A DNA stretch of 32,000 nt from Cupriavidus necator (GTDB taxonomy: Bacteria > Pseudomonadota > Gammaproteobacteria > Burkholderiales > Burkholderiaceae): the NCBI RefSeq assembly GCF_016127575.1, contig NZ_CP066019.1:1230001-1262000 (forward strand). The letters are read 5' to 3'. Made by a program: the position numbers and the translations under genes. The notes beneath the pieces are model-generated. The model did not search any database. It was not told the origin of the DNA and saw nothing but the letters and a program-made list of their open reading frames with translations. Positions 2,885-11,053 of the stretch are shown here, in pieces; positions within the stretch are counted from its first letter, which is position 1, and every line of letters starts with the position of its first letter.

Positions 2885-3577
2885 TCAGGACTGCGCGGTG
2901 GCTGCCTGCGCAAAGCGCGCTGCCAGCCAGGCGCCGATGGCGGCGATCTCTTCCAGGCAGACCGAATGGCCCATCGGATAGGTGCTCCAGGTCACCGGGT
3001 GCTGCCGCGCCTGCACGAAATCGCGGGCGGCGACGCCCAGCTGCAGCGGCACCACGTCGTCCTGCGTGCCATGGGCGGCGAACACGGGCGTGGTGGCGTT
3101 GGCGGCGCTGACCTCGGCCGCCAGCGCTTTCGGCGCAGGGATGTAGGTGGACAGCGCGACGATGCCGGCCAGCGTCTCGGCATGGCTCAGCCCGGCGGTG
3201 TAGGCAATCGCGCCGCCCTGCGAGAAGCCTGCCAGCACGATGCGGTGCGTGGGGATGCCACGGGCGTTCTCGCGCGCAATCAGTGCGCGAATGGCTTCGC
3301 AAGAGGCACGGATGCCGGCTTCATCGGCGCGTCGCCCGGATTCATCGAGGGAATAAATGTCATACCAGGCCGGCATGACATACCCGCCGTTGCAGGTCAC
3401 GGGGATAGCCGGCGCGTGCGGGAAGATAAAGCGCACGCCGGGCGCTGCGGGCAGGCGCAGCTCAGGCACGACCGGGGCGAAATCGCTGCCGTCGGCGCCC
3501 AGCCCATGCATCCAGATGACGGCGCAGGCGGGATTGGGCGCGGTTTCGAATTCGATCGCGGGCAGCAGTTCGCTCAT
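2885..3577 (-). CDS. Phospholipase/carboxylesterase-family alpha/beta hydrolase (about 230 aa)
   Basis: Internal start MSELLPAIEFE of track ORF 2885..3946, with AGGAA upstream. It has the GFSQGG nucleophile elbow and the WMHGLGADG and HGTQDDVVP motifs typical of this family. Confidence 0.85.
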   Translation of the reverse strand: MSELLPAIEFETAPNPACAVIWMHGLGADGSDFAPVVPELRLPAAPGVRFIFPHAPAIPVTCNGGYVMPAWYDIYSLDESGRRADEAGIRASCEAIRALIARENARGIPTHRIVLAGFSQGGAIAYTAGLSHAETLAGIVALSTYIPAPKALAAEVSAANATTPVFAAHGTQDDVVPLQLGVAARDFVQARQHPVTWSTYPMGHSVCLEEIAAIGAWLAARFAQAATAQS

Positions 3578-3666
3578 GGGGCTGGTTCCTGTGGATATGC
3601 GCCTGCGCGCCGCACGGGCGCCAGGCAGCGCGAGTATCGCACAGGTCGGGGCCTGTCCCGGCTGCG

Positions 3667-3951
3667 TCAGGCCGCGGACGGAACGATAGGGACCGTGGTG
3701 AGGCCAGGCGTGCGTGCCGGCAGCTCCGGCATCGCAGGCGGCGTGGCGCGGCGCTTGTCGACCACGTCTTCCACGCCCTTGGCCGCGACGTCTTCCAGGA
3801 ACGCCACCATGTCGCGGTAGTAGGCCACCTGCATTTGCGCTTCGAGCAAGCGCCTTTCGGCCTGGAACAGCGTCAGCCTCATGTCTTGCAGTTCCCTCTC
3901 GGCGATTTTCTCCGGGGTCGGCGGACTGAACAGGTTTGCAAGCCAACGCAT
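3667..3951 (-). CDS. Hypothetical protein (94 aa)
   Basis: Internal Met (MRWLANLF) of track ORF 3667..4029, preceded by GGAGG. It has a predicted helical, charged middle region. Confidence 0.5.
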   Translation of the reverse strand: MRWLANLFSPPTPEKIAERELQDMRLTLFQAERRLLEAQMQVAYYRDMVAFLEDVAAKGVEDVVDKRRATPPAMPELPARTPGLTTVPIVPSAA

Positions 3952-4134
3952 GGCAGTACCTCCAGTGCTGTCAACGGCGAAATAGCGATGCTCGTGCCAT
4001 GGGGACCAATATAGACAAGAATTCGGCAAAAAGTCTCTCGGGCATCTCGCCGTGGCGCCTCGCCCACAAGGATGATTGCCGGTGGCGGACGTCTGCGGTA
4101 GATTGTTCGGCCATGGTCCGGCCGTCCCGCGACC

Positions 4135-5139
4135 CTACTGCCTGCGCTCGCCGCTTGCTGTCGCCAATGTGCCTGTGCGACTGGTCGATGTGCCTGCCTG
4201 ATCCGCGTTGCCAGGCGGATCGCCTTCATATTTCGCGTCGTTTCCTGCCAACAGTGCCTGCATGGCATCGCCGTCCTGCGCGCGCACAAAGCGCAGGATC
4301 GGCGGCCAGAATGCCTCGATATGTTCTGGCAGGATGGCTGCGTCATGCGGCATGGCGTCCAGCATCACCAGCGCATGCAGATGCCTGGCCGCACGGGCCA
4401 CGCGTTCCGCGTGGGGTGGGACGATCACCGCGTCGTCCCGGCTGTGCACCACCAGCAGCGGCCGCTCCAGCCGGCTGGCACGCGCAGCGTTGTTCCACGG
4501 ATCCGGCAGCAGCCACGCGGCCCATGCGGGTATGCGCCCGGTCTGCACTGCGGCCAGGCGCGCCGAACTGAAGCCCGCCGCAATGACATAGCCGTCGGGC
4601 TGCGGATCGAAGCGCTGCGCCACCTCCAGCAGGATGCCGGATCCCAGCGAATGCCCCAGCACCACGCGCCGTTTTGCCTGCGGCGTGGCTGCCAGGAATT
4701 GCCGGTAGGCGGCCAGCGCATCCTCGCGCAGGCGGCGCACGCTTGGCCGCCCGCTGCTGCGGCCGTAGCCGCTGTAGTCGAAGACGTAGGAGGCGATGCC
4801 CGCGCCCGCCAGCATGGCCTGGACCGGGGCCCAGTCGGGCAGGCTCTCATTGTCGCCGTGGCACACCATCAGCGCTGGCGCTTCGGGGTCCGCGGCCGGC
4901 ATGAAGGCGGCGTGCAGGATGCGATTGCCGCTGGCGAACGTGGCATGGCGCACCGTCAGGGCTGAAATGTCGGGTGCTGCCGCGTCCTTTGTTTCATCCG
5001 TCGGCGTGACAAAGGCTTTGCGTTCTACCGCACGAAACAGTAGATGCCGCGCAACACCCGCGGCCACGGCGAGTGCCGCGGCGGTGGCGAGCCAGCGGTG
5101 GCGGGATTCCGGCTGAGCGGGGCGGGGGCCTTCAGGCAT
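4135..5139 (-). CDS. Alpha/beta hydrolase with N-terminal membrane anchor
   Basis: GHSLGS nucleophile elbow. The HSRDD and MPHD motifs are consistent with Ser-Asp-His triad spacing. N-terminal hydrophobic segment WLATAAALAVAAGVA. Confidence 0.8.
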   Translation of the reverse strand: MPEGPRPAQPESRHRWLATAAALAVAAGVARHLLFRAVERKAFVTPTDETKDAAAPDISALTVRHATFASGNRILHAAFMPAADPEAPALMVCHGDNESLPDWAPVQAMLAGAGIASYVFDYSGYGRSSGRPSVRRLREDALAAYRQFLAATPQAKRRVVLGHSLGSGILLEVAQRFDPQPDGYVIAAGFSSARLAAVQTGRIPAWAAWLLPDPWNNAARASRLERPLLVVHSRDDAVIVPPHAERVARAARHLHALVMLDAMPHDAAILPEHIEAFWPPILRFVRAQDGDAMQALLAGNDAKYEGDPPGNADQAGTSTSRTGTLATASGERRQ

Positions 5140-5262
5140 GGCGAGTTTCGGGATGGCGTTCCCTTCAGGCTAGCAGGCCATCGGCGTCCGGGTGAAGAAA
5201 AGTTCATTCGCACGCATGCCTTAAGTGGATTCGCAGCCATATCGTGCAGCGTCGGCAGGCGG

Positions 5263-5277
5263 CTATCGGCCCGATAG
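5263..5277. promoter_or_regulatory. 15-bp palindrome CTATCGG-C-CCGATAG, 12 nt upstream of the -35 element (module copy 1)
   Basis: Read directly. The same palindrome sits at the same spacing in copy 2 (6907..6921), differing only at the central base. Confidence 0.4.
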
Positions 5278-5289
5278 AAAACTTTTGCC

Positions 5290-5318
5290 TTGACTATCTA
5301 CCTAGTAGTAGATAGCAT
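5290..5318 (+). promoter_or_regulatory. Sigma70-type promoter TTGACT-17nt-TAGCAT with embedded operator O1 (CTATCTAC-N6-GTAGATAG, 5294..5315)
   Basis: Near-consensus hexamers with a 17-nt spacer in an AT-rich island. The inverted repeat spans the spacer and overlaps the -10, which is classic repressor geometry. Confidence 0.6.
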
Positions 5319-5388
5319 TGAGTCCATGGCACCGCTGCACCGCCGGAAGCAAGCAAGAGCGGGCGGAAAAGTGGCGATCCCATCGCAA

Positions 5389-5409
5389 GACCGGCATGGT
5401 CATTTTTTT
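5389..5409 (+). terminator. Attenuator-like hairpin plus T7 tract inside the 5' leader (copy 1)
   Basis: GACCG-GCA-TGGTC followed by ATTTTTTT. The stem is short. The positional equivalent in copy 2 is stronger. Confidence 0.3.
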
Positions 5410-5423
5410 AGCACCTGTCATCT

Positions 5424-5437
5424 ATCTACTGGTAGAT
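5424..5437. promoter_or_regulatory. Operator-like palindrome O2, ATCTAC-TG-GTAGAT (copy 1 leader)
   Basis: It shares the ATCTAC/GTAGAT half-sites with O1. It is conserved in copy 2 as a perfect 14-bp palindrome. Confidence 0.5.
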
Positions 5438-5517
5438 GCGGCTCGAAAGAGTGACCCTGCCACAGCCACTGATACCGAATTGAAGCGATCCCGAAACATC
5501 GCACCCAGGAGCCCATC

Positions 5518-5913
5518 ATGAATGCCAAGTTCGCCAAGACCCTGATCACCGCCGCCACCCTTGCCGCCGCACTGGCAGGTGGCGTGGCGCAAGCCGCCAG
5601 CGTGCAAGACAACACCTCGGCTGGCGACAAGTACGGCTACAGCTACCGCGCCGGCAAGTTCGACACCTTCACGGAAGGTGCCCGCACCGGCAAGTTCGAC
5701 CCGTTCACGGAAGGCGCCCGCGTCGGCAAGTTTGATCCGTACACCGACGGCGCCCGCGTCGGCAAGACCGATCCCTACACGGACGGGTACCGCACCGTAG
5801 CTGGCCTGGACCGTAGTGGCGTGTCGGCCGGGCCGGCCCGCAGCTTCGACCCGTACACGGACGGCGCGCGCGTCGGCAAGGCTGACCCCTACACCGACGG
5901 CGCCCTGGCTTGA
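5518..5913 (+). CDS. Secreted tandem-repeat protein (131 aa) built of 12-aa GK-x-DP(Y/F)T(D/E)GAR units
   Basis: AGGAG RBS 7 nt upstream. Sec signal peptide MNAKFAKTLITAATLAAALAGGVAQA / ASVQ. It carries repeats FDTFTEGARTGK, FDPFTEGARVGK, FDPYTDGARVGK and so on. It is a paralog of 7164..7784. Confidence 0.85.
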   Translation: MNAKFAKTLITAATLAAALAGGVAQAASVQDNTSAGDKYGYSYRAGKFDTFTEGARTGKFDPFTEGARVGKFDPYTDGARVGKTDPYTDGYRTVAGLDRSGVSAGPARSFDPYTDGARVGKADPYTDGALA

Positions 5914-5988
5914 TTGCTGCCGGCTGAGGCCGGCGGCCAACAACTTTACGGCGGCGGTCACGCTGACTGCCGTCCGATGGAGTCCATC

Positions 5989-6090
5989 ATGAGTTTGCGT
6001 GACAGTGTCCTGCTGCTTGGCGGATGGCTGGTGCTTTGCGTGACGAGTGGCTCGATGATCACCTTCGCCGCGCAGGTCCTGCCTGGTTAA
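5989..6090 (+). CDS. 33-aa single-pass membrane micropeptide (not in ORF track)
   Basis: GGAG 6 nt upstream of the ATG. Product MSLRDSVLLLGGWLVLCVTSGSMITFAAQVLPG. The paralog at 7859..7960 has the same length and at least seven synonymous third-position differences. Confidence 0.7.
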   Translation: MSLRDSVLLLGGWLVLCVTSGSMITFAAQVLPG

Positions 6091-6104
6091 AGCACATGCC
6101 TCAG

Positions 6105-6150
6105 ATGCCCCGGGCTAGGGAATTACCCCAGCCCCGGGGCATTTCGGCTT
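6105..6150 (+). terminator. GC-rich hairpin after the micro-ORF (possible terminator/insulator, copy 1 only)
   Basis: ATGCCCCGGGCT ... AGCCCCGGGGCAT forms a stem of about 12 bp with one bulge, followed by TTCGGCTT (a weak U tract). Confidence 0.4.
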
Positions 6151-6177
6151 GAGCGCCTATCTTCGCGTAGATAAACT
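6149..6177 (+). promoter_or_regulatory. Putative autoregulated promoter TTGAGC-17nt-TAAACT with operator O3 (TATCT-t-CGCG-t-AGATA, 6158..6173). It predicts a leaderless tetR mRNA
   Basis: Same geometry as the promoter at 5290..5318. The -10 ends 6 nt before the A of the ATG at 6184, and there is no SD upstream of that ATG. Confidence 0.45.
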
Positions 6178-6183
6178 GCTTTC

Positions 6184-6750
6184 ATGAAAACGCAATCAGT
6201 ACGCGAGCAACTGCTCGAGCACACCCTCGTCCTGATCCGCCGCCGCGGCTTCAACGGCTTCAGCTACCGCGACCTGGCGGAACTGGTGGGGGTCAAGACC
6301 TCCAGCATCCACTATTACTTCCCGTCCAAAGAGGACCTGGTACTGGAGGCGGTGAAGGAATACAGCGCCCGCCTGGCCGAGCGCATCCGCTCCATCGACA
6401 CCAGTCTGCCGGTCGCCGAGCAGGCGGCCATCTACCTGGCGCCGTTCCGCGCCAGCTGCGGCTCGGACCAGATCTGCCTGTGCGGCATGTTGTCGACCGA
6501 GACGCTGTGCCTGCCGGAGTCCGTGCACAAGCTGCTGCAGGGCTTCTTCCTGATGAACGAACAATGGCTGGCCGGCCTGCTGGAGCGGGCTCAGCCGCAG
6601 CGCAGCACGCCGTTCCCGGTGCCGCCGGCGCGGCTGGCACAGGTGGTGTTTGGCTCGCTGCAGAGCGGGCTGATTGCGGCACGCCTGTTCGGGACCTCCG
6701 ACCGGGTGGAAGCCGCTGCGGATACGCTGATGGCCGCCGTCGCCGGCTAA
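6184..6750 (+). CDS. TetR/AcrR-family transcriptional regulator (copy 1)
   Basis: N-terminal HTH FSYRDLAELVGVKTSSIHYYFPSKEDLV. Size is 188 aa. Confidence 0.9.
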   Translation: MKTQSVREQLLEHTLVLIRRRGFNGFSYRDLAELVGVKTSSIHYYFPSKEDLVLEAVKEYSARLAERIRSIDTSLPVAEQAAIYLAPFRASCGSDQICLCGMLSTETLCLPESVHKLLQGFFLMNEQWLAGLLERAQPQRSTPFPVPPARLAQVVFGSLQSGLIAARLFGTSDRVEAAADTLMAAVAG

Positions 6751-6781
6751 GGTTTTCGCGCAATATCAGTGGCGCGTCTGA

Positions 6782-6820
6782 AGCCGTCATGTGGCGCAAG
6801 CTGCATGGCGGCTTTTTTAT
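6782..6820 (+). terminator. Rho-independent terminator after tetR copy 1
   Basis: AGCCGTCATG ... CATGGCGGCT forms a 10-bp stem with one G-U pair, followed by TTTTTTAT. Confidence 0.7.
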
Positions 6821-6906
6821 TTGCAGACAGCCGGTCGGCCGCCGGCGCTTCGGAATCGGTGATAAGCGCTTTTAAAACAACGAGATAGAGCCAGAAAAGG
6901 CATAGG

Positions 6907-6921
6907 CTATCGGGCCGATAG
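6907..6921. promoter_or_regulatory. 15-bp palindrome CTATCGG-G-CCGATAG, 12 nt upstream of the -35 element (module copy 2)
   Basis: Read directly. It is the counterpart of 5263..5277. Confidence 0.4.
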
Positions 6922-6933
6922 AAATGTTTTTCC

Positions 6934-6962
6934 TTGACTCTCTACCTAGTAGTAGATAGTAT
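6934..6962 (+). promoter_or_regulatory. Sigma70-type promoter TTGACT-17nt-TAGTAT with embedded operator O1' (CTCTCTAC-N6-GTAGATAG, 6938..6959)
   Basis: Hexamers and spacing are the same as in copy 1. The left operator arm has one mismatch. Confidence 0.6.
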
Positions 6963-7030
6963 TTGACTCATGGAAGCGCTGCACCGCCGGCAACAAGCAA
7001 GACAAGGCGAAAACGTGGCGGTCCCATTGC

Positions 7031-7053
7031 ATGACCGGAGGCGGTCATTTTTT
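7031..7053 (+). terminator. Attenuator-like intrinsic terminator in the 5' leader (copy 2)
   Basis: ATGACCG-GAGG-CGGTCAT forms a perfect 7-bp stem followed by TTTTTT. Confidence 0.45.
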
Positions 7054-7069
7054 CGAGGCCGAGTATCTA

Positions 7070-7083
7070 TCTACTAGTAGATG
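7070..7083. promoter_or_regulatory. Operator O2', perfect 14-bp palindrome ATCTACTAGTAGAT
   Basis: Read directly. It occupies the same leader position as 5424..5437. Confidence 0.55.
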
Positions 7084-7163
7084 CGGAATCGAAAAAAACG
7101 ATCTGCCACAGCCACTGATACCGAATTGACGCGATCCCGAAACATCGCACCCTGGAGCCCATC

Positions 7164-7784
7164 ATGACCAAGATCACCAAGACCCTGATTACCGCCGCCA
7201 CCCTTGCCGCCGCGCTCGCGGGCGGTGTTGCGCAAGCGGCCAGCGTGCAGGACAGCACCTTCACCGGCGACAAGTACGGCTACACCTTCCGCACCGGCAA
7301 GTTCGACACCTTCACGGAAGGCGCCCGCACCGGCAAGTTTGATCCGTTCACCGAAGGCGCGCGCGTTGGCAAGGCCGATCCCTACACCGATGGTGCCCGC
7401 GTTGGCAAGGCTGATCCCTACACCGACGGTGCCCGCACGGTAGCGGGCCTGGACCGCAGCGGTGTCTCGGCCCAACCGTCGCGCAGCTTCGACCCGTACA
7501 CCGATGGTGCCCGCGTTGGCAAGCCCGATCCCTACACCGACGGTGCCCGCACGGTAGCCGGCCTGGACCGCAGCGGTGTTTCGGCCCAACCGTCGCGCAG
7601 CTTCGACCCGTACACCGATGGTGCCCGCGTTGGCAAGCCTGATCCCTACACCGACGGTGCCCGCACGGTAGCCGGCCTGGACCGCAGCGGTGTTTCGGCC
7701 CAACCGTCGCGCAGCTTCGATCCGTACACCGACGGTGCGCGCGTGGGCAAGGCTGACCCTTATACCGACGGCGCCATCGCCTGA
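7164..7784 (+). CDS. Secreted tandem-repeat protein (206 aa), expanded paralog of 5518..5913
   Basis: Signal peptide MTKITKTLITAATLAAALAGGVAQA / ASVQ is nearly identical to copy 1. It has the same 12-aa DPYTDGAR units plus three 38-aa super-repeats. Confidence 0.85.
   Translation: MTKITKTLITAATLAAALAGGVAQAASVQDSTFTGDKYGYTFRTGKFDTFTEGARTGKFDPFTEGARVGKADPYTDGARVGKADPYTDGARTVAGLDRSGVSAQPSRSFDPYTDGARVGKPDPYTDGARTVAGLDRSGVSAQPSRSFDPYTDGARVGKPDPYTDGARTVAGLDRSGVSAQPSRSFDPYTDGARVGKADPYTDGAIA
7428..7769 (+). repeat. In-frame tandem repeat, 3 x 114 nt (38 aa: GARTVAGLDRSGVSAQPSRSFDPYTDGARVGKPDPYTD)
   Basis: Units start at 7428, 7542 and 7656. Units 1 and 2 differ at three positions by my reading, all synonymous third-codon positions. 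Unit 3 diverges in its 3' half. Confidence 0.9.
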
Positions 7785-7858
7785 GAGCCGGCCGGCGTAA
7801 TGCCGGCCATTGAAAACCGCCGGGCCGCCTGGGTGCGGCCCGTCTTCAGGAGTTGATC

Positions 7859-7960
7859 ATGCGTTGGCGTGACACTGCGCTGATCCTTGGCGGATGGGTA
7901 GGGCTTTGCTTCGCAAGCGGGTCCCTCATCACGCTGATCGCACAAACGCTGCCGGCCTGA
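7859..7960 (+). CDS. 33-aa single-pass membrane micropeptide (not in ORF track), paralog of 5989..6090
   Basis: AGGAG 7 nt upstream of the ATG. Product MRWRDTALILGGWVGLCFASGSLITLIAQTLPA. Confidence 0.7.
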   Translation: MRWRDTALILGGWVGLCFASGSLITLIAQTLPA

Positions 7961-7993
7961 ACGGCGCGGCAGCAAGACGATGGAGTTGATGCC

Positions 7994-8581
7994 ATGAACA
8001 CCCGATCCGTACGCGAGCAACTGGTCGAACATGCGCTGGTGCTGATCCGCCGCAGGGGGTTCAATGGCTTCAGCTACCGCGACCTGGCCGACCTGGTCGG
8101 GGTCAAGACCTCGAGCATCCACTATTACTTCCCGTCCAAGGACGACCTGGTGCTGGCAGCGGTGCGCGAATACGGCACCCGCAGGCGGGCGCGCCTGGAT
8201 GCGATCGACGCCAGCCTGCCGCCCGCGGAGCAGGCGCGGCAATACCTTGCGCCTTTGCGCGCGGGTGCCGGCACCGACCAGGCTTGCCTGGTGGGCATGC
8301 TGTCGGCCGACGTGCTGATGCTGCCGGACGCGGTGCGCGCCGCGATGCAGGACTTTATCCGGCTCAATGAGCAATGGCTGGCCAGCTTGTTCGAGCGCGC
8401 CGCGGCGCAGCGCAAGTCGCCCTATCCGATTCCGCCGCAGCAGCTGGCGCAGGTGGTGTTCGGGGCGTTGCAGAACGGCTTGATCAGTGCGCGGCTGTTT
8501 GGCACGCCGGACCGGCTCGATGCCGCGGCGGCGCTGCTGACCAGCGCCATGCCGGCGGAGCAGGCCTTAGCCGCCGCTTAG
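7994..8581 (+). CDS. TetR/AcrR-family transcriptional regulator (copy 2)
   Basis: GGAG RBS. The HTH FSYRDLADLVGVKTSSIHYYFPSKDDLV is almost identical to copy 1, while the C-terminal half is clearly diverged. Confidence 0.9.
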   Translation: MNTRSVREQLVEHALVLIRRRGFNGFSYRDLADLVGVKTSSIHYYFPSKDDLVLAAVREYGTRRRARLDAIDASLPPAEQARQYLAPLRAGAGTDQACLVGMLSADVLMLPDAVRAAMQDFIRLNEQWLASLFERAAAQRKSPYPIPPQQLAQVVFGALQNGLISARLFGTPDRLDAAAALLTSAMPAEQALAAA

Positions 8582-9328
8582 TGTCAGTATCACCGAGCCG
8601 GCGACGGCATTGCACAGCCACTGCGGGTCATCGTGGGGCAGGTCATGCCCGGCCCAGTGGTGCGTCAGCAACTGCGCGTCCCAGGCTTGCGCGATGCGCG
8701 CCGAGCACACCGGGTTGACCAGGCGGTCTGCCGCCGAGGCAAGCAGCAGCGCCGGGCAGCGCGGCGCACTGGCGGGAGCGCGATAGCGGGCAGCGGCCAG
8801 CAACTGTGCCAGCGCGGCTTGGCGGCTCACCGGCGCGTCGGCGGCAATGGCCTGCCAGGTCTCGAGATCGCGTGCCAGCGTATCGGTGCGGGCACAGGTG
8901 ATGGCATGGATGGTCCGCTCGCAGTACGCGCGGTCCTGCCAGCGCTGCGCCACGCGCAGCAGCTTGCCCCAGTTGCGCGGCCGCAGGCGCTGTGCGGGCG
9001 TGCAGAACGGCCGCATGCTGGTATTGACCAGCACCAGGCCGCCGACTTCCTCCGGATAGGCGCTGGCCCACTCGGTCGCGGCCATCGCACCCAGCGACAT
9101 CGCCAGCACGCGGTAGGGGCCGTGCGCGCCGGTGGCCGACAACTGGCGCCGCACCGCGGTGACCATCTCAGGCACGCTCCACGGCGCCGGCTGCGCCGAC
9201 AGCGCGCCGTTGCCGGGCAGGTCGGGCAGCAGCGGCCGGCCCAGCCCGGCCGCTTCCCAACGCGCCGGCAGGCTTCCCCAGTGGCGCGATTCCCGCGTCA
9301 GTCCCCGCAAGAATACCCATCGGCTCAT
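8567..9328 (-). CDS. Alpha/beta hydrolase
   Basis: AMSLGA nucleophile elbow and a C-terminal WAGHDLPHDDP (His) motif. Its start overlaps the upstream stop (ATGA). Confidence 0.8.
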   Translation of the reverse strand: MSRWVFLRGLTRESRHWGSLPARWEAAGLGRPLLPDLPGNGALSAQPAPWSVPEMVTAVRRQLSATGAHGPYRVLAMSLGAMAATEWASAYPEEVGGLVLVNTSMRPFCTPAQRLRPRNWGKLLRVAQRWQDRAYCERTIHAITCARTDTLARDLETWQAIAADAPVSRQAALAQLLAAARYRAPASAPRCPALLLASAADRLVNPVCSARIAQAWDAQLLTHHWAGHDLPHDDPQWLCNAVAGSVILTLSGG

Positions 9329-10347
9329 GGCGGCGGCTCCGTCTGCCAGTGTGCGCGTGCCTGCAGCAGCAGGTCGTCACGCTGCGCGCCGCGCGGCCGC
9401 CAGCGATCCGGCGCAAAGGCCACGCGGCCCAGGAAGTCGAACAGGCTCACGTGCCGGCGCAGCACGCGCGCGGTGCGGTGCGCCTTGATCGGGTTGAAGA
9501 TGCCCTCGCGCGAGAACAGCTGGCGCGGGTTCTTCTTGATCCACAGCCACGAGCCCAGTTCCAGCGTCATCGGCAGGAACAGGTTGCCGTGCGGCGTCAG
9601 GTCATAGGCATGGTCCCACAGGTCGCCGTGCAGCAGGTACTGGTGGCTTTGCGGCTCGAAGGTGTAGCCGTGGTGCGGGTGGGCCTGCTCGAACAGCGTC
9701 TTGAGCAGGTACATCTCGGGCAGGTGCGCCATCGGCCGGCGCGTGCCCGCGTACGGAAACCAGATACTGTCGCGCCAGCCGTAGCCTGAATGGCAGTCCA
9801 CCGCAAAGCTGAGCGGGCGCGGCAGCAGTTCTTCCTGCACCACGCGCAGCAGCGCGCGGCTTTCCGCTTCCATCGGCGCGCCCGCCGGGCCGCGGTACCA
9901 GGGCAGCCAGGCGCCGATGCGCTGGCCGCCGGCCAGGAAGGGCACACGCGCATCGGCGTCCTGCGGGCCATTGCGCATCAGGTCGACGCCGTTGGGGTTG
10001 GCGCGGGTGCCGGCCCACATGCCGCCGGGGTTGACGATCGGCATGAATACCAGCCGCACCGACTGCAGTTCGCGGTGCAGCAGCTCGTCCCACGCCAGCC
10101 GGCTCAGCACCGAGCGCAGGTAGTCCAGCACCAGCTGCGTGCCGATGCGTTCCAGCCCGTGGATGCCGCCGAAGATGCCGATCGCCGGCGCGCCCGGATC
10201 GCGGCTGCCGAGCGTGGCGACATGGACGCCGAAGCGATGGCCCTGCACCATGGTTTCGCAGACCACCCGCGTATCCAGCACGTGGCTGCCCGTATCCAGC
10301 AAGGCCAGCAGCTGGTCGTACTCGGGGAAGCCGGCGTGCGGATGCAT
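9325..10347 (-). CDS. M14-family zinc carboxypeptidase-like protein
   Basis: Internal start MHPHAGFPEYD of track ORF 9325..10461, lying 4 nt after the upstream stop. It has an HxxE zinc motif in GGIHGLERIG, plus NPNGVDLMRN and AVDCHSGYG motifs. Confidence 0.75.
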   Translation of the reverse strand: MHPHAGFPEYDQLLALLDTGSHVLDTRVVCETMVQGHRFGVHVATLGSRDPGAPAIGIFGGIHGLERIGTQLVLDYLRSVLSRLAWDELLHRELQSVRLVFMPIVNPGGMWAGTRANPNGVDLMRNGPQDADARVPFLAGGQRIGAWLPWYRGPAGAPMEAESRALLRVVQEELLPRPLSFAVDCHSGYGWRDSIWFPYAGTRRPMAHLPEMYLLKTLFEQAHPHHGYTFEPQSHQYLLHGDLWDHAYDLTPHGNLFLPMTLELGSWLWIKKNPRQLFSREGIFNPIKAHRTARVLRRHVSLFDFLGRVAFAPDRWRPRGAQRDDLLLQARAHWQTEPPP

Positions 10348-10351
10348 GGGC

Positions 10352-11053
10352 TCAGGCGGTCGGCACGCCGGCCGTGCCGAACAGGTGCAAGACCGGCCAG
10401 CCGCGTGCCTCGGCCGCGTCCCGCAGCGTCGAATCCGGATTGACGGCGACCGGGTGGCCAACGCTTTCTAGCAGCGGCAGATCGTTGCGGGAGTCGCTAT
10501 AGAAGGTGGCCTGTGCCAGCGCCGTGTGCGCAATGCCCAGCGTGTCGAGCCACGCCAGCACGCGCAGCACCTTGCCAGGCCCAAAGGCCGGCACGCCGGC
10601 CAGCGCGCCGGTGAACTCGCCGTGCGCATCGTGTTCCGCCTCCACCGCCAGCAGGTGCGGCACGCCCAGCTGGCGCGCGATCGGCTCGGTGACAAAACGG
10701 CAGGTGGCGGTGACGATGCAGCACAGGTCGCCGGCGGAGAGGTGGCGGGCCAGCAGGTCGCGCGCCGCCGGCTGGATGGCGGGCACGATCACTTTGCGCA
10801 TGAAGTCCGCGCGCCACTGCGTCAGTCGTTCACGCGGATGGCGCGCCAGCAGGCCCAGGGCAAAGCGCGCATGGGCGGCAAAGTCCAGCCGCCCCGCCTG
10901 GTAGGCCGCCAGCCAGCGCGTGTTGTGCGCATCGATTTCGGCAGCCTCGGCGCCGCCCACGGCAACGAGGTAGCGAGCCCATTCATACTCGCTGTCGAGC
11001 GGCAGCAGGGTGTGGTCGAGGTCAAACAGGGCGAGGCGGGGGGCAGCGGGCAT
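10352..11053 (-). CDS. HAD-IB family hydrolase (SerB-like phosphatase)
   Basis: Internal start MPAAPRLALFDLDHTLL (DxDxT motif I) of track ORF 10352..11284. It has the late motif YSDSRNDLPLL. Confidence 0.8.
   Translation of the reverse strand: MPAAPRLALFDLDHTLLPLDSEYEWARYLVAVGGAEAAEIDAHNTRWLAAYQAGRLDFAAHARFALGLLARHPRERLTQWRADFMRKVIVPAIQPAARDLLARHLSAGDLCCIVTATCRFVTEPIARQLGVPHLLAVEAEHDAHGEFTGALAGVPAFGPGKVLRVLAWLDTLGIAHTALAQATFYSDSRNDLPLLESVGHPVAVNPDSTLRDAAEARGWPVLHLFGTAGVPTA

What the first reader, a model, noticed from the sequence alone, without database searches (positions are those of the whole stretch)
5263..8581. Tandemly duplicated TetR-gated module: secreted DPYTDGAR-repeat protein, 33-aa membrane micropeptide and TetR repressor
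- Two adjacent paralogous units (about 5263-6750 and 6907-8581) share the same parts in the same order.
- Each unit has a 15-bp palindrome, a near-consensus promoter with an embedded inverted-repeat operator, and a conserved leader of about 190 nt with a second operator.
- Each unit then encodes a Sec-secreted protein made almost entirely of 12-aa GK-x-DP(Y/F)T(D/E)GAR units, a 33-aa transmembrane micro-ORF and a TetR regulator.
- No enzyme, pump or transporter is present in the module. That is unusual, because TetR regulators normally gate efflux pumps or catabolic enzymes.
- The cargo here appears to be a low-complexity periplasmic or secreted repeat protein plus a micropeptide.
- The Asp/Tyr/Thr-rich DPYTDG motif could plausibly bind cations, or act as a periplasmic stress or matrix protein. 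That is speculation.
- From memory, and unverified, small signal-peptide proteins with xFTDGAR-like repeats are among the strongly metal-induced orphan peptides of Cupriavidus/Ralstonia (CopQ/CzcJ/MmmQ-like).
- If that link is real, a dedicated TetR plus micropeptide partnership would still be new.
Basis: partly seen in the sequence, partly recalled or inferred. Interest (0 to 1): 0.85.

Follow-up and report, generated by a model that had tools for sequence, protein, structure and literature searches.

The report
TetR-gated CopQ-like stress module, duplicated
Two tandem copies of a Cupriavidus-specific gene cassette, in which a cysteine-bearing TetR repressor controls a secreted disordered repeat protein of the poorly understood, metal-induced CopQ family plus a conserved 33-residue membrane peptide; this supplies a candidate regulator and control circuit for an orphan metal-stress protein family.

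Summary
Window 5264-8581 holds two paralogous units: promoter, two operators, a ~192-nt leader, a secreted D-x-[YF]-T-[DE]-G repeat protein, a 33-codon membrane micro-ORF and a TetR gene.

The repeat protein belongs to the known but functionally unexplained CopQ-like family (CopQ, CzcJ, MmtQ, MmsQ, PrsQ). The window is the duplicated ortholog of mmtQ-Rmet_4188 on the C. metallidurans CH34 chromid.

New here:
- A CopQ-like gene lies upstream of 41 of 42 assessable Cupriavidus/Ralstonia loci of this TetR clade.
- The micro-ORF is a real coding sequence: 33 codons, GGAG, dN/dS about 0.3.
- The operator is TATCTA-N4-TAGATA: 5 window hits against 0.02 expected.
- CH34 TSS data place a start site just downstream of O1 and −10, and another on the tetR ATG (leaderless).
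- A weak hairpin with a T-run lies a fixed 12-14 nt before O2.
- The TetRs are NemR-like, with an invariant Cys aligned to NemR's sensing Cys106.
- In Burkholderia and Paraburkholderia the same regulator and operator flank ohr. A same-order B. cenocepacia cluster is H2O2/NaOCl-induced.

Most likely this is a thiol-stress and soft-metal derepressed envelope module. What the repeat protein and the peptide do biochemically remains unknown. I rate it a new variant of known kinds, of moderate to good interest.

The parts
5264..5278 (.). 15-bp palindrome CTATCGGCCCGATAG upstream of promoter 1, followed by an A/T-rich stretch
   Evidence: Read directly. CTATC-N5-GATAG is kept at -36 from O1 only in the necator-type clade and is shifted ~20 nt in the metallidurans-type clade; it is absent elsewhere. 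Role unknown: an accessory site or UP-like element.
5290..5318 (+). Promoter P1 of unit 1 (-35 TTGACT, 17-nt spacer, -10 TAGCAT)
   Evidence: Consensus scan. The orthologous CH34 promoter has a mapped TSS 27 nt after the O1 start (PMC9045368 supplement).
5299..5314 (.). Operator O1 (TACCTAGTAGTAGATA), between -35 and -10
   Evidence: Conserved in all Cupriavidus modules (alignment A6).
5326..5517 (+). Leader of unit 1 (192 nt). The predicted TSS is the A of the invariant CATGG.
   Evidence: CATGG is invariant in 17 of 17 aligned leaders. In CH34, TSS_770554 falls on that A. No Rfam match.
5389..5409 (+). Weak leader hairpin (GACC...GGTC) plus a T7 run: terminator-like attenuator
   Evidence: -5.2 kcal/mol. 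A hairpin abutting the T-run occurs in 24 of 37 distinct leaders against 3.4 expected, using at least four unrelated stems.
5423..5438 (.). Operator O2 (TATCTACTGGTAGATG), 13 nt after the T-run
   Evidence: The T-run-to-O2 distance is 12-14 nt in all but two of the loci tabulated (L017: 38 nt; L012: no T-run), while TSS-to-T-run and O2-to-ATG distances vary.
5518..5913 (+). CopQ-like secreted repeat protein 1 (131 aa; signal peptide about 1-26; six D-x-[YF]-T-[DE]-G motifs)
   Evidence: AlphaFold2 mean pLDDT 54, with no secondary structure after the signal helix. No Pfam or NCBIfam family.
5989..6090 (+). Micro-ORF 1, a 33-aa single-pass membrane peptide (MSLRDSVLLLGGWLVLCVTSGSMITFAAQVLPG); GGAG at 5979-5982
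   Evidence: 43 copies found, all 33 codons counted from their own ATG/GTG, with a GGAG/GGGAG-type SD upstream in all but the L011/L013-L016 sub-clade. dN/dS about 0.30, third codon position most variable, other frames closed. HMM hits occur only just upstream of tetR.
6098..6148 (+). Strong hairpin after micro-ORF 1 (terminator-like or stabiliser, weak U tail)
   Evidence: -35 kcal/mol, z = -5.1. The equivalent hairpin lies after mmtQ in CH34.
6158..6173 (.). Operator O3 (TATCTTCGCGTAGATA), 10 nt before the tetR1 ATG; overlaps the tetR1 promoter
   Evidence: A site sits 26-27 nt before the tetR start in many loci of the clade, in Cupriavidus and in the out-group genera. In CH34, TSS_771541 falls on the A of the tetR ATG, so the mRNA is leaderless.
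6184..6750 (+). tetR1 (188 aa), NemR-like TetR repressor with Cys92, Cys98, Cys100 and Cys109
   Evidence: TetR_N E = 1e-11. Cys98 is invariant in 83 of 83 clade members. hhalign against E. coli NemR gives probability 97.7%, with Cys98 aligned to Cys106.
6780..6821 (+). Intrinsic terminator ending unit 1
   Evidence: 16-bp stem plus T-run; -30.8 kcal/mol, z = -6.4.
6907..6921 (.). 15-bp palindrome of unit 2 (CTATCGGGCCGATAG)
6934..6962 (+). Promoter P1' of unit 2 (TTGACT, 17-nt spacer, TAGTAT)
6943..6958 (.). Operator O1' of unit 2
6970..7163 (+). Leader of unit 2 (predicted TSS 6970)
7031..7054 (+). Leader hairpin (ATGACCG...CGGTCAT) plus T-run of unit 2
   Evidence: -10.2 kcal/mol, z = -2.0.
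7068..7083 (.). Operator O2' of unit 2, 14 nt after the T-run
7164..7784 (+). CopQ-like secreted repeat protein 2 (206 aa; ten motifs; a 114-bp DNA repeat of 3.5 copies at 7376-7775)
7859..7960 (+). Micro-ORF 2, 33 aa (MRWRDTALILGGWVGLCFASGSLITLIAQTLPA)
7994..8581 (+). tetR2 (195 aa). It has a normal GGAG SD and no O3, lies 34 nt after micro-ORF 2, and keeps only Cys98.

Best explanation
Each unit is a self-contained, autoregulated stress cassette.

1. Repression. A NemR-like TetR dimer binds the 16-bp palindromes TATCTA-N4-TAGATA. O1 lies between -35 and -10 of a strong sigma-70 promoter and should block initiation. O2 lies in the transcribed leader, 12-14 nt beyond a weak hairpin and U-run. 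O3 (unit 1 only) overlaps the promoter of a leaderless tetR mRNA, giving autoregulation.
2. Induction. When the invariant Cys98, the counterpart of NemR Cys106, is oxidised, alkylated or bound by a thiophilic metal, the repressor leaves the DNA. Cys92, Cys100 and Cys109 of TetR1 may add to this.
3. Output. The operon then produces a Sec-exported, intrinsically disordered D-x-[YF]-T-[DE]-G repeat protein of the CopQ family for the periplasm or envelope. It also produces a 33-residue single-pass inner-membrane peptide and, in unit 2, more repressor, which is negative feedback.
4. Duplication. The tandem copy gives two repressors with near-identical DNA-reading heads but diverged sensor domains acting on the same operators, so two signals could be integrated.

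Shown: the anatomy, the conservation, coding selection on the micro-ORF, operator specificity, and TSS positions in the CH34 ortholog.
Inferred: that TetR binds these sites, the thiol switch, the inducers, and the protective role of the cargo.
For: - Anatomy and paralogy.
- Operator: 5 hits against 0.02 expected, all in the module. It is conserved at the same relative positions across the whole TetR clade.
- Linkage: a CopQ-like gene lies directly upstream of tetR in 41 of 42 assessable Cupriavidus/Ralstonia loci and in 0 of 35 out-group loci.
- Micro-ORF: present in 31 of 45 loci plus 10 second units, and only just upstream of tetR. dN/dS is about 0.3.
- CH34 experimental TSSs (PMC9045368 supplement): a strong TSS 232 nt upstream of mmtQ, with -35 TTGCTT and -10 TAGTAT flanking O1; a TSS on the tetR ATG; mmtQ NPKM 13 against tetR NPKM 87 without stress. 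mmsQ and mmsQ1 have the same promoter, and mmsQ has the full module.
- Inducers in CH34: mmtQ is reported highly induced by Cd, Hg and Pb, moderately by Zn, and not by Cu or Ni (PMC2864759).
- Sensor: Cys98 is invariant in 83 of 83 and aligns with NemR Cys106 (hhalign probability 97.7%).
- Out-group: the same regulator and operator precede ohr plus a secreted esterase in Paraburkholderia and Burkholderia. The B. cenocepacia cluster of the same gene order, BCAS0084-0086, is induced up to about 1400-fold by H2O2 and also by NaOCl (PMC2830190).
- Cargo: disorder predicted; no Cys, His or Met.
- Family function: PrsQ1 and PrsQ2 are needed for silver resistance in strain NA4S (PMC7380067).
Against: - No binding, induction or phenotype data exist for this locus.
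- NemR's partner residue Lys175 is Arg167 here, so the NemR sulfenamide chemistry cannot be copied exactly.
- TetR2 and CH34 Rmet_4188 keep only one and two cysteines respectively, so a multi-Cys metal site is not general.
- The strong TSS signal in unstressed CH34 means O1 does not silence initiation.
- I inferred orthology between BCAS0084 and this clade from gene order in B. dolosa and B. diffusa, not from its sequence.
- I found no metal-response values for Rmet_4187 or Rmet_4188 in the held supplements. Janssen et al. give theirs as 'data not shown'.
- The biochemical role of the repeat protein and of the peptide remains unknown.
Confidence: 0.6

Rival explanations
1. This is a classical ligand-pocket TetR. 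The regulator binds an unknown small organic molecule in its C-terminal pocket, and the conserved cysteine is structural only. Metals and oxidants would induce only indirectly, or not at all.
For: Most TetR-family regulators work this way (established knowledge). TetR_C_13 is an ordinary ligand-binding domain. NemR's Lys175 partner is not conserved. The closest solved structures, 2g7s and 3on4, are uncharacterised.
Against: Cys98 is invariant in 83 of 83 sequences across seven genera, while neighbouring positions vary. It aligns with the proven sensing Cys of NemR. Relatives control ohr, and the B. cenocepacia cluster of that gene order is oxidant-induced. The CH34 ortholog responds to thiophilic metals.
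Confidence: 0.25
2. The micro-ORF is only a translational device, either for coupling or as an upstream ORF that sets tetR translation. On this reading its peptide has no function of its own.
For: It always lies directly upstream of tetR. In unit 2 it ends 34 nt before tetR2. It has been lost in 13 loci and in the CH34 mmtQ locus without loss of the rest.
Against: It shows purifying selection on the amino-acid sequence (dN/dS about 0.3), a fixed length and a conserved R-D-S...GW..LC..SG...AQ motif. In unit 1 and its orthologs a -35 kcal/mol hairpin, an operator and a separate leaderless tetR start lie between it and tetR, so coupling is impossible there.
Confidence: 0.12
3. The leader hairpin with its T-run is not an attenuator. 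O1 and O2 simply cooperate by DNA looping, and the T-run is a DNA-bending or spacer element.
For: The hairpins are weak (-4 to -10 kcal/mol, z about -1). Two-operator looping is common for repressors (established knowledge). Some Paraburkholderia ohr leaders have a hairpin without a T-run.
Against: The stems differ in sequence between clades yet keep their pairing. The T-run-to-O2 distance is fixed at 12-14 nt, while the O1-O2 distance varies from 99 to 150 bp and is not in helical phase. In unstressed CH34 the TSS signal is strong but the coding region weak, and the authors' 5'UTR segment starts right after the T-run.
Confidence: 0.4
4. The repeat protein is a multi-core precursor. After export it is cut at the basic residues between units into short DPYTDGAR-type peptides, which are the active species.
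For: The 12-aa units are regular and bounded by Arg and Lys. The repeat number varies rapidly, with orthologs of 128-244 aa. An M14 carboxypeptidase and S33-type hydrolases are neighbours at this site.
Against: Those peptidase and hydrolase neighbours are absent from the paralogous modules. The M14 protein has no evident signal peptide. The cassette encodes no modifying enzyme or dedicated exporter. No such processing is reported for CopQ-like proteins in the papers I read.
Confidence: 0.08

Closest known systems
CopQ-like small secreted proteins of Cupriavidus/Ralstonia (CopQ, CzcJ, MmrQ, MmmQ, MmtQ, MmsQ, PrsQ1/PrsQ2)
   Same: Signal peptide, repeated xDxxT(D/E)G motifs with regular spacers, and restriction to the two genera. 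Sequence homology is direct: the window is syntenic with CH34 mmtQ (Rmet_4187), and its best hit on the CH34 chromid is mmsQ at 69.5%.
   Different: The described members copQ, czcJ, mmrQ and mmmQ sit in metal-resistance clusters, and prsQ2 is activated by the response regulator AgrR. This sub-type has its own TetR, operators and a micro-ORF. None of that is mentioned in the papers I could read. The R. solanacearum member I examined has none of these parts.
E. coli NemR (TetR-family electrophile and reactive-chlorine sensor, nemRA-gloA operon)
   Same: Full-length homology at profile level (probability 97.7%). The sensing Cys106 aligns with the clade-invariant Cys98. Both are autoregulated. 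From my own memory, unverified, NemR also uses a 6-N4-6 palindromic operator.
   Different: Identity is only about 23%. NemR Lys175 is Arg here. The cargo is not a detoxifying enzyme but a secreted disordered protein plus a micropeptide. The operator sequence differs, and this module adds a leader operator and an attenuator-like hairpin.
tetR-ohr-exported lipase cluster of Burkholderia (BCAS0084-BCAS0086 in B. cenocepacia J2315)
   Same: In my Burkholderia and Paraburkholderia loci the TetR belongs to the same clade (47-54% identity). They share the operator TATCTA-N4-TAGATA and the leaderless CTTGAC-operator-CATGG tetR promoter. In Burkholderia the target leader also shows operator, hairpin with T-run, 12-13 nt, then a second operator. 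The B. cenocepacia cluster is induced by H2O2 and NaOCl.
   Different: The gene order is reversed, with tetR first and the cargo downstream. The cargo is a thiol peroxidase and an esterase. There is no micro-ORF and no CopQ-like gene.
CydZ / DUF2474 small subunit of CIO-type cytochrome bd oxidases
   Same: A short single-pass membrane peptide with Gly-Trp at the start of the helix. Some NCBI and UniRef records label the micropeptide 'DUF2474 domain-containing protein'.
   Different: There is no Pfam hit even at E = 10. Profile tests against genuine CydZ sequences, including two from C. necator, score no better than shuffled controls. It is not next to cydAB, and it is shorter, lacking the basic C-terminal half.
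OhrR-Ohr (MarR-type organic peroxide sensor)
   Same: It shares the logic of a Cys-based repressor released by thiol oxidation to switch on a protective gene (established knowledge).
   Different: It is a different protein fold (MarR, not TetR), with a different operator and different cargo.

Membership tests
CopQ-like secreted repeat proteins | N-terminal Sec signal sequence | tested here: met
   The sequence shows a Lys-containing n-region, the hydrophobic stretch TLITAATLAAALAGGV and an AQA-A cleavage motif. AlphaFold2 predicts a helix at residues 3-22 only. No dedicated signal-peptide predictor was available.
CopQ-like secreted repeat proteins | RDxxTDG-type motif repeated three or more times with regular spacers (Janssen 2010) | tested here: met
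   D-x-[YF]-T-[DE]-G occurs 6 and 10 times, mostly at 12-residue spacing. The underlying DNA repeats are 36 bp and 114 bp.
CopQ-like secreted repeat proteins | Sequence homology to named family members | tested here: met
   569 hits, many named CopQ; CH34 MmtQ (P0073) at E = 4e-30. The locus is syntenic with Rmet_4187. The CH34 mmsQ hit is 69.5% identical.
CopQ-like secreted repeat proteins | Restriction to Cupriavidus and Ralstonia | tested here: met
   The named hits listed are almost all Cupriavidus. Plasmid and chromid hits are 139 Ralstonia and 21 Cupriavidus. There are only 291 representatives at 50% identity among 1.84 billion proteins.
CopQ-like secreted repeat proteins | Strong induction by heavy metals | not testable with these tools
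   Reported for the ortholog mmtQ (Cd, Hg, Pb) as 'data not shown' in PMC2864759. No values were found in the held supplements.
TetR-family repressors | N-terminal TetR_N helix-turn-helix domain | tested here: met
   PF00440 at E = 1e-11 and 2e-11, both above the cut-off.
TetR-family repressors | Helical C-terminal regulatory domain | tested here: met
   TetR_C_13 scores 29.1 bits for TetR2 (cut-off 27) and 21.1 bits for TetR1 (below cut-off). Both align over their full length to the solved TetRs 2g7s and 3on4 at E about 1e-22.
TetR-family repressors | Palindromic operator overlapping the regulated promoter, with autoregulation | tested here: met
   O1 lies between -35 and -10, and O3 lies at the tetR1 promoter. 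TSS positions are confirmed in CH34. Actual binding could not be tested.
NemR-type thiol-switch TetR regulators | Homology to NemR over the whole protein | tested here: met
   hhalign probability 97.7%, E = 2e-12, 179 columns. phmmer against 4yze gives E = 2e-7 from the Paraburkholderia member.
NemR-type thiol-switch TetR regulators | Conserved sensing cysteine equivalent to Cys106 | tested here: met
   Cys98 is invariant in 83 of 83 and aligned to Cys106 in both MAFFT and hhalign.
NemR-type thiol-switch TetR regulators | Lys175 partner for the Cys-Lys sulfenamide | tested here: not met
   The aligned residue is Arg167, invariant in alignment A8.
NemR-type thiol-switch TetR regulators | Derepression by electrophiles or reactive chlorine | not testable with these tools
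   The only evidence is indirect: the B. cenocepacia tetR-ohr-lipase cluster responds to H2O2 and NaOCl.
DUF2474 / CydZ (for the micropeptide) | Match to Pfam PF10617 | tested here: not met
   No family is reported for 7 variants even at E = 10.
DUF2474 / CydZ (for the micropeptide) | Profile similarity to genuine CydZ proteins | tested here: not met
   Scores are 4.2 bits or less while shuffled controls reach 14.4 bits; hhalign probability is 2.5%.
DUF2474 / CydZ (for the micropeptide) | Encoded directly downstream of cydB | tested here: not met
   It always lies between a copQ-like gene and tetR.

The most novel reading that the evidence does not exclude
O2 may be a positioned roadblock. It always starts 12-14 nt past the U-run of a terminator too weak to work alone. 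A TetR bound there would stall RNA polymerase with the U-run in its active centre, turning the weak hairpin into an efficient, repressor-dependent terminator. Promoter escape past O1 would then yield only a ~80-100-nt leader RNA until the repressor is released. This repressor-assisted attenuation would be shared with the Burkholderia ohr leaders. The promoter that feeds it is itself a recycled copy of the leaderless tetR promoter, start codon included.
Probability: 0.3. Interest if true: 0.75.

Novelty: new variant of a known kind. Interest (0 to 1): 0.62.

Why it matters
CopQ-like proteins are among the genes most strongly induced by metals in the model metal-resistant bacterium C. metallidurans, which has 21 paralogs. 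Two of them are needed for an evolved silver resistance. Yet their function and, for the members outside metal-resistance clusters, their regulation have been open since 2007-2010.

This analysis gives those orphan members (the mmtQ, mmsQ and mmsQ1 type) four things:
- a dedicated candidate regulator;
- a precise operator sequence;
- a testable sensing residue;
- a previously unremarked, conserved membrane micropeptide partner.

It also links them by descent to an oxidant-responsive tetR-ohr system in Burkholderia. That suggests thiol or oxidative stress, rather than metal ions as such, may be the proximate signal. All of this is directly testable in CH34, where genetics and TSS maps already exist. 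The compact promoter-operator-attenuator unit might also serve as a tight biosensor part.

Tried and rejected
- Rfam on 4500-9500 at E = 1 or less found nothing, so the conserved leader is not a known riboswitch or sRNA.
- Pfam and NCBIfam give no family for the repeat proteins or micropeptides. Longer or distant family members also have no Pfam domain.
- The AUG that starts the leader transcript opens an ORF of 6-71 codons with no conserved peptide, so I rejected it as a leader peptide. The invariant CATGG is better explained as a relic of the leaderless tetR promoter.
- I looked for a second promoter at O2. There is no conserved -35, and CH34 has no TSS there.
- I rejected the DUF2474/CydZ label found in some database records.
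- I rejected the flanking alpha/beta hydrolases and the M14 peptidase as module parts.
- The 15-bp palindrome is not a core element.
- Supplements of three CH34 transcriptome papers gave no values for Rmet_4187 or Rmet_4188.
A 45-aa extended form returned only 5 close hits.
- The long antisense ORFs across the repeats (5422-5961 and 7074-7703, minus strand) have no support and are what GC-rich repeats produce by chance.

Full report

Yes. The sequence and ORF list show two head-to-tail units on the + strand.
- Unit 1 has a 131-aa repeat protein (5518-5913), a 33-aa ORF (5989-6090) and a 188-aa TetR (6184-6750).
- Unit 2 has a 206-aa repeat protein (7164-7784), a 33-aa ORF (7859-7960) and a 195-aa TetR (7994-8581).

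The ~266 nt upstream of the two repeat-protein genes are 90% identical. The repeat proteins are 88% identical over their shared part, the micro-ORFs 58% and the TetRs 66%. The consensus scan finds exactly two sigma-70-like promoters in 5100-8800: TTGACT-17-TAGCAT at 5290-5318 and TTGACT-17-TAGTAT at 6934-6962. It also finds a strong terminator (6780-6815) between the units.

Allowing two mismatches, it occurs five times in the 32-kb window, at 5299, 5423, 6158, 6943 and 7068. All five lie in the module, against 0.02 expected by chance.

**2. What the parts are**

*Repeat proteins.* They have no Pfam or NCBIfam family. They have 569 homologs, and the named ones among the listed hits are almost all from Cupriavidus, many labelled 'copper resistance protein CopQ'. 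The literature describes this family:
- Janssen et al. [quoted passage not shown] They are strongly and differentially metal-induced and restricted to Cupriavidus and Ralstonia.
- A later paper counts 21 paralogs in CH34 and calls the family 'still poorly characterized' (PMC7563307).
- Two members, PrsQ1 and PrsQ2, are required for the silver resistance of mutant NA4S (PMC7380067).

A profile search of 1.84 billion representative proteins finds only 291 members, all small. A sample of ten of the longer or more distant members carries no recognisable domain. The mature window proteins have 6 and 10 D-x-[YF]-T-[DE]-G motifs. They contain no Cys, His, Met or Trp and have a near-neutral charge balance. 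AlphaFold2 predicts no structure beyond the signal helix (mean pLDDT 54). Unit 2 carries a recent 114-bp, 3.5-copy expansion, and orthologs range from 128 to 244 aa.

*Regulators.* They are TetR-family proteins (TetR_N at E about 1e-11).

*Micro-ORF.* It has no family. Some database records call it DUF2474, which is the CydZ subunit of CIO-type bd oxidases (PMC4325964 and PMC5322542). Neither hmmscan nor profile tests against genuine CydZ sequences support that label.

**3. Is the linkage conserved?**

I scanned one genome per GTDB species with the two TetRs and kept the best 80 loci. Of these, 45 are labelled Cupriavidus, Ralstonia or Burkholderiaceae, 5 are Collimonas, and 30 are Paraburkholderia, Burkholderia, Caballeronia, Trinickia or unclassified Burkholderiales.
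- **CopQ-like gene.** It lies directly upstream of tetR in 41 of the 42 Cupriavidus-group loci that are not cut by a contig end. The exception is L024. None of the 35 out-group loci has one.
- **Micro-ORF.** An HMM of the micro-ORF hits only the + strand immediately upstream of tetR. It is present in 31 of the 45 loci, and again in the second tandem unit of ten close relatives of the window.
- **Copy number.** Most genomes carry two or more modules at separate sites.
- **Neighbours.** The hydrolases and the M14 peptidase that flank the window module occur only at the orthologous site. The three-gene cassette is therefore the unit.

The micro-ORF is a real coding sequence. All 43 copies are 33 codons long counted from their own ATG/GTG start, and most have a GGAG/GGGAG-type Shine-Dalgarno sequence 5-7 nt upstream; the L011/L013-L016 sub-clade lacks a clear one. 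Median dN/dS is 0.30, the third codon position is the most variable, and the other frames are mostly closed.

The window is the duplicated ortholog of CH34 mmtQ (Rmet_4187) and Rmet_4188, with the same flanking genes. CH34 has lost the micro-ORF there but keeps the full cassette at mmsQ. A CopQ-like gene of R. solanacearum has no operator, micro-ORF or TetR.

**4. Regulatory anatomy, with experimental anchors from CH34**

The supplement of Grosse et al. 2022 (PMC9045368) gives three anchors.
- A strong TSS lies 232 nt upstream of mmtQ. Its -35 (TTGCTT) and -10 (TAGTAT) flank O1.
- mmsQ and mmsQ1 have the same promoter and a TSS 223 nt upstream. So all three CopQ-like genes that Janssen et al. 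called 'unlinked to any HMR locus' share this promoter layout. A downstream tetR is confirmed here for mmtQ and mmsQ.
- A second TSS (771541) falls on the A of the tetR ATG. That means a leaderless tetR mRNA starting 11 nt after O3.

The window's tetR1 has the same layout: O3 at 6158-6173, no Shine-Dalgarno sequence, and the ATG at 6184. tetR2 has a GGAG, no O3, and follows micro-ORF 2 by 34 nt. Both architectures therefore coexist here.

In 17 diverged leaders the invariant features are as follows.
- The -35 element, O1 and the -10 element.
- A CATGG whose A is the mapped TSS, always 27 nt from the O1 start.
- A short hairpin followed by T6-8.
- O2.

The hairpin stems differ between clades (ACCG/CGGT, AGCC/GGCT, CCCGG/CCGGG, CGGGG/CCCCG) but keep their pairing. 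A hairpin abutting the T-run is present in 24 of 37 distinct leaders, against 3.4 expected (relatedness inflates the P value). The T-run-to-O2 distance is 12-14 nt in all but two of the loci tabulated (L017 at 38 nt, L012 with no T-run), while the other distances vary.

In unstressed CH34 the TSS signal is high (409) but the mmtQ coding region is weakly expressed (NPKM 13, against 87 for tetR). The authors' 5'UTR segment starts just after the T-run. This fits premature termination or a roadblock in the leader. It does not prove either.

**5. What the regulator is likely to sense**

Cys98 is invariant in all 83 TetRs of the clade. The clade is homologous to E. coli NemR over the whole length (hhalign probability 97.7%). 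Cys98 aligns with NemR Cys106. From established knowledge of NemR, that is the residue modified by electrophiles and reactive chlorine. The Lys175 partner is Arg here, so the chemistry cannot be identical.

In Paraburkholderia, Burkholderia and Trinickia the same regulator and operator precede ohr (OsmC family) and a secreted Abhydrolase_3 esterase. In B. cenocepacia the cluster of that gene order, BCAS0084-0086, is induced by H2O2 (ohr up to about 1400-fold by qPCR) and by NaOCl (PMC2830190). In Collimonas the operator region faces a secreted DUF4148 repeat protein.

The out-group tetR promoter reads CTTGAC-ATC-operator-(-10)-CATGG, with the ATG as tetR's own start codon. The Cupriavidus copQ-like promoter therefore looks like a copy of the leaderless tetR promoter, which explains the invariant CATGG. 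The reported inducers of mmtQ (Cd, Hg and Pb, but not Cu or Ni) are thiophilic. That fits a thiol-based sensor, acting directly or through thiol depletion.

**6. Most likely mechanism and how sure I am**

- TetR represses the operon through O1 and O2, and autoregulates through O3. I put this at about 0.9, on anatomy and conservation.
- Derepression comes from modification of Cys98 by oxidants, electrophiles or soft metals. About 0.5.
- The hairpin, U-run and O2 act as a repressor-assisted attenuator. About 0.3-0.35.
- The output is a periplasmic disordered protein and a membrane peptide that protect the envelope. That direction is supported only by family-level data (metal induction, the PrsQ phenotype). 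The chemistry is unknown. Oxygen-ligand binding of hard or Ca-like cations is possible but untested.

The two TetRs have 87% identical N-terminal domains and about 56% identical C-terminal domains (from alignment A2). They differ in cysteine content (four against one), so they probably share operators but differ in signal.

**7. Evolutionary note**

Within a genome, the promoter, leader and 5' part of the copQ-like gene of the two units are more alike (0.84) than the same parts compared across genomes (0.77). The tetR genes do not show this (0.71 against 0.72, with orthologs at 0.82-0.86). The 5' half therefore undergoes gene conversion, while micro-ORF and tetR keep separate identities.

**8. 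Novelty and verdict**

The repeat protein family and TetR repression are both known kinds. I did not find the following in the searchable literature:
- the dedicated TetR;
- its operator;
- the conserved micropeptide;
- the leaderless promoter duplication;
- the terminator-operator coupling;
- the link to a tetR-ohr system.

That library lacks many subscription papers, including Monsieurs 2011 and Mijnendonckx 2019, so prior mention cannot be excluded. I rate it a new variant of a known kind, with interest about 0.6. It is not astonishing, but it turns a long-standing orphan family into a directly testable system.

Noticed in passing
window 5274-5670 versus 6918-7310; loci L001, L006, L009, L022: The 5' half of the two units (promoter, leader, start of the copQ-like gene) evolves in concert. 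Within-genome u1-u2 identity is 0.84 against 0.77 across genomes. tetR shows no such effect (0.71 against 0.72). This points to gene conversion confined to the 5' half.
   Followed up: yes
window 7376-7775: A 114-bp tandem repeat of 3.5 copies (94% matches) encodes a 38-aa super-repeat in copQ-like 2. Orthologs range from 128 to 244 aa, so repeat number changes fast.
   Followed up: partly
window 5325-5329 and 6969-6973; L052, L058, L060 about 3990-4003: An invariant CATGG sits at the copQ-like TSS. In out-group genera the same CTTGAC-operator-CATGG unit is the tetR promoter, with the ATG as the tetR start codon. The copQ-like promoter therefore looks like a recycled leaderless tetR promoter. 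The resulting AUG-initiated leader ORF is not conserved (6-71 codons).
   Followed up: yes
L083 3719-3757 (CH34 chromid, Rmet_4188): The deposited 211-aa start of CH34 Rmet_4188 is probably too far upstream. The mapped TSS_771541 coincides with the downstream ATG (a 199-aa leaderless form), and the authors assigned it to a gene 6.5 kb away.
   Followed up: partly
L083 3498-3755; L085 2978-3079: CH34 has lost the micro-ORF at the mmtQ locus. At mmsQ the micro-ORF is intact, but the otherwise conserved Cys in the helix is Ala there.
   Followed up: partly
L044 3029-3442 (- strand) and 3560-3990: In Collimonas the TetR of this clade has several operator-like sites facing a divergently transcribed secreted protein made of three DUF4148 repeats. 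This is another small exported repeat protein as cargo.
   Followed up: partly
L058 4620-4710, L071 4620-4705: Burkholderia ohr leaders show operator, hairpin with T-run, 12-13 nt, then a second operator, as in Cupriavidus. Some Paraburkholderia leaders (L060) have the hairpin but no T-run.
   Followed up: partly
window 5264-5278 and 6907-6921: The palindrome CTATC-N5-GATAG followed by AAA..TTTT is conserved only in the necator-type clade. It is shifted about 20 nt in the metallidurans-type clade. Its outer bases match the outer bases of the extended O1 palindrome. Function unknown.
   Followed up: partly
micropeptide records P0121, P0138: NCBI and UniRef label some copies of the micropeptide 'DUF2474 domain-containing protein'. 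This does not hold up against genuine CydZ sequences and may be an annotation artefact spreading in databases.
   Followed up: yes
window 4135-5139 (-), 8567-9328 (-), 9325-10461 (-): Two S33-type alpha/beta hydrolases and an M14 carboxypeptidase without an evident signal peptide flank the module. They are syntenic in CH34. The 3' end of tetR2 overlaps the convergent hydrolase gene by 15 nt.
   Followed up: partly
window 6184-6750 versus 7994-8581: TetR1 has four cysteines within 18 residues (C92, C98, C100, C109), whereas TetR2 keeps only C98. The DNA-binding halves are 87% identical and the sensor halves about 56%. This suggests shared operators with different signals, and possibly heterodimers.
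   Followed up: no
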